Shown: positions 1,477 to 2,193 of the stretch, in pieces | How the letters are laid out: every line of letters starts with the position of its first letter | Position numbering within the stretch: the first letter of the stretch is position 1 | Virus record (IMG/VR): IMGVR_UViG_2534682252_000031 | Length of the DNA stretch: 4,691 bases | Reading direction: 5' to 3' (one strand) | Source: a virus | Taxonomy: Duplodnaviria > Heunggongvirae > Uroviricota > Caudoviricetes | Translations under genes and position numbers: made by a program | Notes under the pieces: generated by a model | Told to the model about the DNA's origin: nothing | What the model saw: only the letters and a program-made list of their open reading frames with translations | The model's database searches: none

Positions 1477-1501
1477 TCTCCAGGATTCCCGGGGCGGTTC
1501 A
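1477..1501. repeat. IS629-like terminal inverted repeat (orfA-proximal end)
   Basis: Reverse complement is TGAACCGCCCCGGGAATCCTGGAGA. Confidence 0.85.
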
Positions 1502-1609
1502 GACCAGCACCCCATCCGCCAGCACCGACATGATTCTGCTGGTGAAATCCACCATCACCACCAGAAACAGCAGGAGTGCAGCCACAGCCAGGCGCAGTTT
1601 TACCGTCAC
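1499..1609 (-). CDS. Short hydrophobic ORF (36 codons), translationally coupled to the TerB-like gene and terminated by the TGA formed at the IS end; probably an IS-interrupted gene
   Basis: GTG start at 1609-1607 overlaps the upstream TGA stop (GTGA), with GGAG 8 nt upstream (plus 1618-1621). Translation: MTVKLRLAVAALLLFLVVMVDFTSRIMSVLADGVLV (signal-peptide or TM-like). The stop is contributed by the first bases of the IS. Not in the supplied ORF track because it is short. Confidence 0.25.
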   Translation of the reverse strand: MTVKLRLAVAALLLFLVVMVDFTSRIMSVLADGVLV

Positions 1610-2037
1610 AGGTGATTCTCCAGACGAAGACCCAGAACACCGGCAATCTCTTCCAGCACCTTGCGCTCTTCCGGCTCAATTTCGCCGTCTGCCTCCGCAA
1701 TGGCCACCGCCACATCCAGCACATCTTCCGCTTCACGCGTATCGTGTTTCACATCCTCAATCTCACGTAACGCCGCACGACGACCAGTTTTAAAGTTCGT
1801 ATCCAGCTGACCGATAATGGTTGCGCTAATCGCATTAATTTCTGACGTAAACGCGGACAGCGCAGGCTGATTACGCAGTACCTGTTCGATCTTCGCTTTC
1901 TCGGATGCCTCACATTCACCATCTGCACAGGCCACCAGGTATGCGGCGTTAATCACCACCTGTGCCAGATCGCGTTTTTCAAACTTTTTAATTTCCGTTG
2001 CCGCTCTGCGGGTTTTCTTTTTGAAGATTCCAAACAT
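1606..2037 (-). CDS. TerB-domain (tellurite-resistance TerB-like) protein, about 143 aa
   Basis: Start chosen at the internal ATG (2037-2035) because AAGGAA lies 7 nt upstream (plus 2045-2050); the longer form from 2109 has no RBS. Two repeats of the TerB-like motif are visible (AAYLVACADGECEASEKAKIEQVL and AVAIAEADGEIEPEERKVLEEIAGVLGL). Family assignment is by motif recognition. Confidence 0.65.
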   Translation of the reverse strand: MFGIFKKKTRRAATEIKKFEKRDLAQVVINAAYLVACADGECEASEKAKIEQVLRNQPALSAFTSEINAISATIIGQLDTNFKTGRRAALREIEDVKHDTREAEDVLDVAVAIAEADGEIEPEERKVLEEIAGVLGLRLENHL

Positions 2038-2169
2038 CGTGACGTTCCTTTGGGTGGGTGAGCCAACGCCCGGGAGCGATCTGCCCACAGAGAAAGTCAC
2101 ACTGACCACTCCGTAAGCTCACCCCCGAAAGGCTCTGTGGTTGGTATGCGCCGGGCGTGGCGCAGATAC

Positions 2170-2193
2170 AAAAAAGGCCCGCCGAAGCGAGCC
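2170..2193 (-). terminator. Rho-independent terminator downstream of the tRNA-Arg gene
   Basis: Minus strand GGCTCGC-TTCG-GCGGGCC: a 7-bp stem with one G-T wobble and a UUCG tetraloop, followed by TTTTTT (plus A-run 2170-2175). Confidence 0.6.

What the first reader, a model, noticed from the sequence alone, without database searches (positions are those of the whole stretch)
1499..2193. Unusual cargo in the slot that carries stx in Stx phages: a TerB-domain gene coupled to a small hydrophobic ORF
The order rusA, Q-like gene, strong terminator, then Ile2 and Arg tRNAs is the late-regulatory layout of lambdoid phages. In Stx phages the toxin genes sit immediately after the tRNAs, under Q-dependent readthrough. 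Here that position holds a TerB-domain protein whose stop overlaps (GTGA) the GTG start of a hydrophobic ORF with its own GGAG. TerB domains are best known from tellurite-resistance and phage-stress operons, where they partner with membrane proteins; a standalone TerB plus membrane-peptide pair as late-expressed prophage cargo is not something I can match to a named system. It could be a lysogenic-conversion, stress or defence module.
Basis: partly seen in the sequence, partly recalled or inferred. Interest (0 to 1): 0.6.

Follow-up and report, generated by a model that had tools for sequence, protein, structure and literature searches.

The report
Phage tciA-tciB pair, cut by IS
This is a common, already-catalogued phage gene pair (a TerB-fold protein plus a tiny membrane protein, first named tciA/tciB in phage P1) that sits where Shiga-toxin phages carry stx; its function has never been tested, and in this window the second gene is broken by an insertion sequence.

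Summary
On the minus strand, a 143-aa TerB-domain gene (2037-1606) ends in a GTGA overlap with the GTG start of a hydrophobic ORF that has a GGAG 8 nt upstream. That ORF is cut at codon 36 by an IS629-like element (192-1501). The slot claim also holds: homology with Stx2 phage 933W runs through the tRNAs and terminator, breaks where 933W has stx2AB, and resumes right after the small ORF. The pair is not unusual or unnamed. It is the phage P1 tciA/tciB module (PHROG 632 + 1470, Pfam TerB + DUF3927). It occurs in 846 of 5,426 complete E. coli genomes, with a median of 4 copies. It also occurs in P1, jumbo Erwinia phages, virulent Salmonella N4-like phages, and prophages of other Enterobacterales, Pseudomonas and Xanthomonas. 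The two genes are coupled (gap -4 to +3 nt) and under purifying selection. No function has been tested anywhere. My best inference is a non-essential module of the lytic cycle: an amphitropic, probably metal-binding TerB protein working at the inner membrane with its small partner. The copy here is defective. The window also joins plasmid DNA (espP) to prophage DNA across the IS. I score it already known and of low interest.

The parts
1606..2037 (-). tciA: intact 143-aa standalone TerB-fold protein gene
   Evidence: Pfam TerB 52.2 bits. PHROG 632 E=1e-68, full length. Klebsiella TerB 2JXU E=2.9e-7 over residues 15-137. AF2 pLDDT 84, seven helices. 100% identical to the EDL933 copy.
1499..1609 (-). 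tciB (DUF3927) remnant: GTG start overlapping the tciA stop (GTGA); codons 1-36 only; the stop codon is supplied by the IS terminus
   Evidence: Pfam DUF3927 41.5 bits. The intact 55-aa form matches PHROG 1470 E=4e-30. Truncation point read.
2038..2174 (-). leader between the terminator and the tciA start; no sigma-70-like promoter found on this strand
   Evidence: Promoter scan. The left boundary of the cassette relative to 933W lies about 48 nt after tRNA-Arg.
2175..2194 (-). intrinsic terminator hairpin followed by a T-run, between tRNA-Arg and tciA; shared with 933W, where it precedes stx2A
   Evidence: -14.9 kcal/mol.
2207..2283 (-). tRNA-Arg (TCT)
   Evidence: ARAGORN, Rfam.
2384..2459 (-). 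tRNA with CAT anticodon (Ile2/ileZ type; RefSeq calls it tRNA-Ile)
192..1501 (-). IS3-family, IS629-like insertion sequence (orfA 1447-1121, orfB 1121-234, ALIL frameshift pseudoknot 1050-1166) that interrupts tciB
   Evidence: Inverted repeats, Pfam transposase and rve domains, Rfam ALIL 118 bits.
1..191 (-). 5' end and promoter region of espP from a pO157-type plasmid; not prophage DNA
   Evidence: 99.5% identity to pO157 plasmids, 549 of 556 places on plasmids.
3759..4325 (-). Q-like antiterminator (DUF1133)
   Evidence: Pfam DUF1133 E=3.7e-105 and Phage_antitermQ 33 bits. PHROG 753.
3657..3687 (-). strong hairpin terminator just downstream of the Q-like gene (tR'-like)
   Evidence: Fold -18.2 kcal/mol, z -4.76.
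4376..4681 (-). rusA Holliday-junction resolvase gene
   Evidence: Pfam RusA 58 bits.

Best explanation
The locus is one copy of the widespread phage accessory module tciA-tciB, first named in phage P1. It sits in the exchangeable 'moron' slot of an EHEC-type lambdoid prophage: downstream of the Q-like gene, the tRNAs and a terminator, and upstream of nanS-p and the lysis genes. Stx phages carry stxAB in this same slot. Shown: TciA is a standalone, all-helical TerB-fold protein that keeps the duplicated acidic ADG...E motifs. It has a conserved cationic amphipathic N-terminus. TciB is a 50-59-aa, very hydrophobic protein with basic ends. The two reading frames overlap or abut in every lineage that has both, and both are under purifying selection. 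Inferred: the pair is co-translated from the late transcript, which depends on Q antitermination, so it is made during lytic growth. TciB inserts in the inner membrane and acts with, or recruits, the amphitropic and probably metal-binding TciA. The complex is a non-essential conditioner of the infected cell's envelope. By analogy with the phage-inhibition and colicin-resistance phenotypes of ter operons, it most likely protects the producing cell from competing phages or membrane-directed attack until lysis. In this particular window the module is defective. An IS629-like element removes the C-terminal 19 residues of TciB, including the conserved WP..K end. The DNA beyond the IS is plasmid DNA (espP), not prophage. 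My sub-probabilities are: identity as the tciAB family, above 0.95; membrane-associated two-protein unit, about 0.6; expressed mainly in the lytic cycle, about 0.6; exclusion or protection role, about 0.3.
For: Identity: Pfam TerB and DUF3927. PHROG 632 and 1470, both full length. P1 TciA 41-51% identity, E down to 4e-36. P1 TciB 50% identity with the shared motif VDFTSxI(M/L)SVL(A/S)DG.LV...WP..K. JLK-2012 annotated as tciA/tciB. Fold: 2JXU sequence match. AF2 pLDDT 84, pTM 0.79. Foldseek top hits are TerB-superfamily structures 2H5N and 2OU3, probability 0.98-1.0. Coupling: gaps of -4, -1, 0 or +3 nt in EDL933, JLK-2012, two P1 records, ChrisDB, LMessi, Klebsiella phage 1 LV-2017 and SP-076. 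A TciB HMM hit abuts the TerB stop in 21 of 52 species-level genome loci. Further loci have divergent or non-homologous small membrane ORFs with the same overlap. Selection: dN/dS 0.03-0.07 for tciA and 0.16-0.33 for tciB in unsaturated pairs. Slot: homology with 933W covers the tRNAs and terminator and resumes after the tciB stop. Q-tciAB-holin order is also seen in Pantoea stewartii, LMessi and a Klebsiella phage. Lytic expression: no promoter-like site between the terminator and tciA. P1 tciABC lies inside the C1-repressed ban operon. The pair is present in virulent phages. Non-essential in P1 by CRISPRi (PMC10695390). Amphipathic N-terminus: muH 0.49-0.55, net charge +5 to +7 in seven of nine homologues. 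TerB has been reported as an amphitropic membrane-associated protein (cited).
Against: No experiment anywhere assigns a function to TciA or TciB. The interaction between the two proteins was not tested; I could not co-fold them. AF2 models TciB as one long helix, so the two-span hairpin topology is unproven. Some phages (PMBT3, Vibrio K481) carry the TerB gene with no small membrane ORF, so TciA can evidently act without TciB. Late-only expression is inferred from position, and the promoter scan is a crude consensus match. The N-terminal amphipathicity is only marginally above shuffles (4.8% of shuffles reach it). Decayed tciB alleles exist among prophage copies.
Confidence: 0.6

Rival explanations
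1. Lysogenic-conversion or defence cargo. Under this reading tciAB is expressed from the resident prophage and gives the lysogen a Ter-like phenotype: tellurite or colicin resistance, or abortive or exclusion defence against incoming phages. This would be analogous to the TerB-containing defence systems Bunzi, Shango and Dionysus.
For: The moron slot is known for conversion genes (stx). TerB domains occur in validated defence systems, and Dionysus pairs a TerB-like protein with a multi-TM pore former. Up to 8 copies are kept per E. coli genome. In Pseudomonas and Pectobacterium prophages the module sits beside the repressor or cII region rather than the late region.
Against: There is no significant PADLOC match (best E=0.005, no passing stretch). 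None of the partner genes of those systems is nearby. The same coupled pair is found in strictly virulent phages that never form lysogens. A terminator and no promoter-like site lie directly upstream. P1 places the module in a C1-repressed operon.
Confidence: 0.2
2. Counter-defence decoy. A phage-made TerB protein, tethered at the membrane by TciB, mimics or titrates the TerB sensor of host membrane-surveillance systems, or of the ter operon's phage-inhibition function, so that infection is not aborted.
For: The module occurs in virulent, jumbo and temperate phages alike and sits in lytic transcription units. Host defence systems use TerB domains. The membrane partner is swapped for non-homologous ones while TerB is kept.
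Against: This is analogy only. There is no similarity to known anti-defence families, no data on interaction with host TerB systems, and the E. coli hosts that carry the prophages are not known to carry such systems.
Confidence: 0.1
3. Lysis-timing accessory. TciB is a holin- or antiholin-like small membrane protein, regulated by TciA, that tunes the lysis clock of the downstream holin-endolysin cassette.
For: TciB is small, hydrophobic and has basic termini, like class II holins. In lambdoid phages it lies between the Q-like gene and the lysis genes.
Against: TciB matches only PHROG 1470 and no holin family. A bona fide class II holin is present downstream. In P1, SP-076, jumbo phages and Pseudomonas prophages the pair is nowhere near the lysis genes. 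In EHEC it is separated from the holin by a 1.9-kb esterase gene.
Confidence: 0.05

Closest known systems
[quoted passage not shown]
   Same: TciA is 41-51% identical over its full length. TciB is 50% identical with the same conserved motif. The stop/start overlap is the same. Phage tRNA genes are adjacent. The module is non-essential and its function is untested.
   Different: There is no TciC here or in any non-P1 locus. In P1 the module lies in the C1-controlled ban operon rather than the Q-dependent late region. Here tciB is truncated by an IS.
TerB of the terZABCDE(F) tellurite-resistance, phage-inhibition and colicin-resistance operon (Klebsiella TerB, PDB 2JXU)
   Same: Same domain (Pfam PF05099), similar length, helical bundle and duplicated acidic motif.
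   Different: It stands alone: no terZ, A, C, D or E nearby. Identity is low, with the sequence match at E=2.9e-7. The membrane partner is a roughly 55-aa peptide rather than the multi-span TerC.
stx2AB cassette of Stx2 phage 933W (and other cargo of the Q-to-lysis moron slot)
   Same: Identical genomic slot: after ileZ/arg tRNAs and a shared terminator, before nanS-p, the holin and the endolysin. The flanks are 74-94% identical.
   Different: The cargo is unrelated in sequence and function. It is not a toxin and has no known role in virulence.
TerB-containing anti-phage systems (Bunzi, Shango, Dionysus)
   Same: A TerB-type domain is combined with membrane components. Dionysus pairs a TerB-like protein with a TM pore-forming protein.
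   Different: No PADLOC model matches. There are no helicase, ATPase, MAEBL or pore-forming partners. The module is encoded by phages, including virulent ones, rather than by defence islands.
DjlA and YebE (DUF533): TerB-like domains fused to their own transmembrane anchor
   Same: Weak matches to the TerB-like part of DjlA (NCBIfam E=4e-7) and to DUF533 (E=1e-5). The idea of a membrane-tethered TerB domain is shared.
   Different: Both scores are below the family cut-offs. Here the anchor, if it is one, is a separate co-translated peptide, and there is no J domain.

Membership tests
TerB domain family (Pfam PF05099) | Profile match above the curated threshold | tested here: met
   52.2 bits against a cut-off of 24.4, residues 55-162 of the 167-aa ORF.
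TerB domain family (Pfam PF05099) | Sequence and fold similarity to solved TerB-type structures | tested here: met
   2JXU E=2.9e-7 over residues 15-137. The AF2 model (pLDDT 84) has TerB-superfamily 2H5N and 2OU3 as top Foldseek hits, probability 0.98-1.0, but only TM 0.52-0.56 and E 0.03-0.3.
TerB domain family (Pfam PF05099) | Duplicated acidic motif (ADG....E) in both halves | tested here: met
   D39, G40, E46 and A114, E124 are invariant; D117 and G118 are invariant or nearly so across alignments.
ter operon (terZABCDE) tellurite-resistance system | Co-occurrence with terZ/A/C/D/E genes | tested here: not met
   None are present in the window or within 6 kb on either side in EDL933.
ter operon (terZABCDE) tellurite-resistance system | Confers tellurite resistance, phage inhibition or colicin resistance | not testable with these tools
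   Needs phenotypic assays. No published test for phage TciA was found.
Phage P1-type tciAB module (PHROG 632 + PHROG 1470) | TciA-type TerB protein, full-length match | tested here: met
   PHROG 632 E=1e-68, positions 1-143 of 143. tblastn to P1 tciA E=5e-22 to 4e-36.
Phage P1-type tciAB module (PHROG 632 + PHROG 1470) | TciB/DUF3927 small hydrophobic protein encoded immediately downstream with overlapping or abutting stop and start | tested here: met
   The window has a GTGA overlap. The remnant matches DUF3927 at 41.5 bits. The intact EDL933 form matches PHROG 1470 E=4e-30. Only 36 of 55 codons remain in this window.
Phage P1-type tciAB module (PHROG 632 + PHROG 1470) | Third gene tciC | tested here: not met
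   tblastn with P1 TciC finds it only in the other P1 record. There is no equivalent ORF after tciB elsewhere.
Known anti-phage defence systems (PADLOC-DB, including Shango and Bunzi) | Match to a defence-system protein model and presence of the system's partner genes | tested here: not met
   The best TciA hit is PDC-S48 at E=0.005 with no passing stretch. TciB has no hit. The neighbours are phage late genes.
Stx-phage-type late-region cargo slot | Located between the Q/tRNA/terminator block and the nanS-p/lysis block, with flanks homologous to an Stx phage | tested here: met
   In blastn of EDL933 against 933W, the left flank is 87% identical and ends about 48 nt after tRNA-Arg. The right flank resumes 16 nt after the tciB stop.
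Holins (class II / pinholin) | Match to a holin family and position in the lysis cassette | tested here: not met
   Only PHROG 1470 is matched. A separate Phage_holin_2_1 gene lies downstream.

The most novel reading that the evidence does not exclude
Standalone phage TerB proteins may form, together with a translationally coupled micro-membrane protein, a general two-part unit made during lytic growth. The partner is TciB in enterobacterial, P1, jumbo and N4-like phages. Non-homologous peptides with the same -4 overlap take its place in Pseudomonas and alphaproteobacterial prophages. This unit might manipulate membrane surveillance. It could do so as a decoy or antagonist of TerB-based host defences (the ter operon Phi function, Shango, Bunzi, Dionysus), or as a superinfection-exclusion device. 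If so, the stx slot of EHEC prophages would usually hold a phage-versus-phage or phage-versus-host weapon rather than a virulence gene.
Probability: 0.12. Interest if true: 0.6.

Novelty: already known. Interest (0 to 1): 0.22.

Why it matters
As a sequence feature it adds little. The pair is annotated in RefSeq, Pfam and PHROGs, and a 2026 preprint lists TerB among the conserved genes near PasA/PasC sRNAs in these prophages. Three things are worth keeping. First, tciAB and stxAB are true alternative cassettes at one recombination-bounded slot, which helps in reading EHEC prophage mosaics. Second, the module is among the most widespread phage accessory pairs that still has no tested function, and TerB domains have recently become relevant to anti-phage defence, so a simple clone-and-challenge experiment could be informative. 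Third, this window is a plasmid-prophage junction through IS629. That is either a real IS-mediated rearrangement in the source strain or an assembly join, and anyone using this contig should know about it.

Tried and rejected
1. A functional link between tciAB and tRNA genes. The module lies next to tRNA clusters in P1, ChrisDB, JLK-2012 and EHEC prophages, but 44 of 52 species-level genome loci have no tRNA within 3 kb. I rejected it as a general rule; it probably reflects shared moron hot-spots.

2. Natural TerB-TciB fusions as Rosetta-stone evidence. P0126, P0186 and P0249 turned out to be small deletions, frameshifts or chimeras at the overlap. I did not use them.

3. Defence-system membership. 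PADLOC found nothing significant.

4. Finding the window's IS::tciB junction elsewhere. It is absent from 5,426 complete E. coli genomes and from 10 representative places that encode the identical TciA. No replicon has espP contiguous with the complete IS; pO157 Sakai matches only as far as window position 1223. The origin of the junction is unresolved.

5. The IMG/VR scan with a single protein returned only copies at 96% identity or higher. The nine-sequence alignment was too diverse to seed a locus scan, so I used a four-sequence alignment instead.

6. TciB topology from AF2. The model is a single 52-residue helix, which does not settle hairpin against single span.

7. Co-folding TciA with TciB was not possible with the tools provided.

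8. The longer 167-aa TerB ORF from GTG 2109. I rejected it because all homologues start at MFG.
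Full report
What is in the window. All genes relevant to the finding are on the minus strand. In order they are:
- rusA (4681-4376);
- a Q-like antiterminator of the DUF1133 family (4325-3759);
- a strong hairpin terminator (3657-3687, -18.2 kcal/mol, z -4.8);
- a phrog_331 ORF (3657-3337);
- an AraC/YdeO-like regulator (3201-2488);
- tRNA-Ile2 (CAT, 2459-2384) and tRNA-Arg (TCT, 2283-2207);
- a second terminator (2194-2175);
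- a 143-aa TerB-domain gene (2037-1606);
- a small hydrophobic ORF whose GTG (1609-1607) overlaps the TerB TGA (1608-1606) as GTGA, with GGAG 8 nt upstream.

The Pfam matches are TerB at E=9.2e-14 and DUF3927 at E=1.3e-10.

The small ORF is truncated, and the window is a junction. An IS3-family, IS629-like element occupies 192-1501. It has inverted repeats at 191-216 and 1477-1502, transposase orfA and orfB, and an ALIL frameshift pseudoknot. The stop codon of the 36-aa ORF is the terminal TGA of the IS. The intact gene in EDL933 encodes 55 aa. Bases 1-191 are not prophage DNA. They are the promoter and first codons of espP from a pO157-type plasmid, and 549 of 556 matching places are on plasmids. 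In pO157 Sakai, espP adjoins the same IS, but only as far as window position 1223. The three bases flanking the IS differ (CAC and GAC), so there is no target-site duplication. No complete E. coli genome out of 5,426 contains the IS::tciB junction. None of the public contigs examined that encode the identical TerB protein contains it either. The junction is therefore either a strain-specific IS629-mediated rearrangement or an assembly join through the repeat. I cannot tell which.

Is it unusual? No. The 705-bp TerB/DUF3927 segment is found in 846 of 5,426 complete E. coli genomes, with a median of 4 and up to 8 places per genome. Nearly all are chromosomal, and RefSeq annotates them as 'tellurite resistance TerB family protein | DUF3927 family protein'. 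In phage JLK-2012 the same pair is annotated as tciA/tciB. The two proteins match PHROG 632 and PHROG 1470 ('TciB-like ...') from end to end. The names come from phage P1, whose tciA-tciB-tciC operon was named purely by homology to TerB. A genome-wide CRISPRi screen found it non-essential (PMC10695390; P1 annotation). P1 TciA is 41-51% identical to the window protein. P1 TciB is 50% identical to the intact EHEC protein and shares the motif VDFTSxI(M/L)SVL(A/S)DG.LV...WP..K. A 2026 preprint on Pas sRNAs already lists TerB among the genes conserved next to PasA/PasC in these prophages.

The slot claim. In EDL933 the order is Q-like gene, hypothetical gene, HTH regulator, tRNA-Ile, tRNA-Arg, TerB, DUF3927, SASA esterase (nanS-p), holin, YdfR, lysozyme, antirepressor, Rz. 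In 933W the order is Q, pR', terminators, ileZ, argN, argO, terminator, stx2A, stx2B, SASA esterase, S, R, ant, Rz. Pairwise blastn shows 87% identity through the tRNAs and the terminator. The match then breaks about 48 nt after tRNA-Arg. It resumes 16 nt after the DUF3927 stop, which corresponds to 87 nt after the stx2B stop. None of the four phage records that carry the full pair is an Stx phage.

Is the small ORF real and coupled? Yes. In each of the following, a 51-59-aa hydrophobic ORF starts -4, -1, 0 or +3 nt from the TerB stop:
- EDL933;
- JLK-2012;
- two P1 records;
- the jumbo Erwinia phage ChrisDB;
- the lambdoid phage LMessi;
- Klebsiella phage 1 LV-2017;
- the virulent Schitoviridae phage FSL SP-076.

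I also scanned one genome per species and obtained 52 loci. An HMM built from these TciB sequences hit an ORF abutting the TerB stop in 21 of them. These span Franconibacter, Pantoea, Pseudescherichia, Serratia, Pectobacterium, an Aeromonadaceae MAG, a Bilophila MAG, Pseudomonas and Xanthomonas. Three more loci have recognisably divergent TciB-like ORFs. A Pseudomonas clade has an unrelated 67-aa ORF with a signal-anchor or lipobox-like start and the same -4 overlap. Two alphaproteobacterial loci have 48-50-aa two-segment hydrophobic ORFs. Nei-Gojobori estimates for unsaturated pairs give dN/dS of 0.03-0.07 for tciA and 0.16-0.33 for tciB. Two virulent phages, PMBT3 and Vibrio K481, have the TerB gene alone.

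What the proteins look like. TciA is predicted with confidence (pLDDT 84, pTM 0.79) as a seven-helix bundle. Its best structural matches are TerB-superfamily entries 2H5N and 2OU3 (probability 0.98-1.0, TM about 0.5). By sequence it matches Klebsiella TerB 2JXU at E=2.9e-7 over nearly its whole length. The duplicated acidic ADG....E motif is conserved. The N-terminus (MFGIFKKKTRRAATEIKKF) is conserved, strongly cationic (+5 to +7) and amphipathic (muH about 0.5), although only 95% of shuffles score lower. That fits the published description of TerB as an amphitropic, membrane-associated protein, as cited. TciB has basic residues at both ends (K4, R6 and K48, R49) and about 40 mostly hydrophobic residues between them, with conserved D21, R25, D32 and G33. 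AF2 draws it as one long helix, so its topology is open.

When is it made? Three lines of indirect evidence point to the lytic cycle. First, in lambdoid prophages the pair lies downstream of the Q-like gene and two intrinsic terminators, with no promoter-like site in the 137-nt leader. Second, in P1 it lies in the C1-repressed ban operon. Third, it is present in phages that have no lysogenic state. Position is not fixed, however. In Pantoea stewartii it is again between Q and the holin. In Pectobacterium it is next to a cII-like gene, and in Pseudomonas next to a CI/LexA-like repressor.

Most likely mechanism. I commit to the following model. TciA and TciB are co-translated from the late transcript. 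TciB inserts in the inner membrane. The amphitropic, probably metal-binding TerB protein acts there with it. The non-essential complex conditions the envelope of the infected cell, most likely by excluding competing phages or resisting membrane-directed attack. This mirrors the phage-inhibition and colicin-resistance phenotypes historically tied to ter operons. Identity and coupling are shown. Membrane association, timing and phenotype are inferred. Rival readings are listed with their tests: cargo that protects the lysogen, a decoy against TerB-based defences, and a lysis-timing accessory. PADLOC gives no support for a known defence system, and TciB matches no holin family.

Status of this copy. 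tciA is intact and identical to the EDL933 allele. tciB has lost its C-terminal 19 residues, including the conserved WP..K end. The downstream STnc100 sRNA, nanS-p and the lysis genes seen in intact loci are replaced by the IS and plasmid DNA. The module here is therefore very probably non-functional as a pair.

Verdict. The feature is already known as a family and an arrangement, but its function is experimentally unknown. Interest is low to moderate. It rests on the untested biology of a very widespread phage module and its possible link to TerB-based immunity.

Noticed in passing
window 1-1501: The window joins pO157 plasmid DNA (espP promoter and start, 1-191; 99.5% identical to Sakai pO157 up to position 1223) to prophage DNA through a complete IS629-like element. 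The IS flanks differ (CAC and GAC), so there is no target duplication, and no complete E. coli genome has this junction. It is either an IS-mediated rearrangement or an assembly chimera.
   Followed up: partly
window 2488-3201 (-): A 237-aa AraC-family regulator sits between the Q-like gene and the tRNAs. It is YdeO/GadX-like (NCBIfam E=2e-30, below cut-off) and matches PHROG 1450. It belongs with the published prophage regulators PatE/PsrA/PsrB, which control acid resistance and type III secretion in O157 (PMC10877973). I did not determine which one it is.
   Followed up: partly
window 3337-3657 (-): A 106-aa ORF (PHROG 331, unknown function, weak winged-helix-like hit) has its ATG inside the T-tract of the terminator after the Q-like gene. 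RefSeq annotates only a 65-aa version in some genomes and the 106-aa version in others.
   Followed up: no
L001 5764-5936 (-) (EDL933; lost from the window): An STnc100 sRNA (Rfam 104.7 bits) lies 5 nt downstream of the DUF3927 stop, upstream of nanS-p. A 2026 preprint relates STnc100 to the PasD sRNAs. The IS junction removes it from this window.
   Followed up: partly
L106-L115, L126 (Pseudomonas genomes), about 3447-3650: In one Pseudomonas prophage clade the TciA-type TerB gene is followed, with the same -4 overlap, by a 67-aa ORF unrelated to TciB (MKYATKVLLILLALIVGC..., lipobox-like; PHROG 27356). Alphaproteobacterial loci L135 and L139 have 48-50-aa hydrophobic ORFs instead. The membrane partner seems replaceable.
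   Followed up: partly
L004, L005 (P1), L006 (ChrisDB), L002 (JLK-2012), L093, L094, L107, L136: tciAB often sits directly beside phage tRNA clusters of differing tRNA identity in unrelated phages. However, 44 of 52 genome loci have no tRNA within 3 kb, so this is probably a shared cargo hot-spot rather than a functional link.
   Followed up: yes
L004 against L005 (two phage P1 records): The two P1 records carry very different tciA alleles (non-synonymous difference 0.49) but identical C-terminal halves of tciB. This implies a recombination breakpoint inside tciB. A published survey also lists tciABC as one of eight hypervariable P1 regions.
   Followed up: partly
IMG/VR loci L012-L091; proteins P0126, P0186, P0037: Among prophage copies there are decayed tciB alleles (43-aa and 46-aa frameshift forms), a 3-codon duplication (P0037), and TerB-DUF3927 'fusions' created by small deletions at the overlap.
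   Followed up: partly
window 2470-2498 (-): A promoter-like site (TTGATT-17-TATTAT) lies just upstream of tRNA-Ile2, at the position of the putative tRNA promoter pT annotated in 933W. The tRNAs may therefore be expressed in lysogens, while the terminator at 2175-2194 shields tciAB.
   Followed up: no
L001 11102-11426 (-): A hok/sok toxin-antitoxin locus (Rfam sok 113.5 bits, Hok/Gef CDS) and a NirD/YgiW/YdeI stress-tolerance gene lie upstream in the same EDL933 prophage.
   Followed up: no
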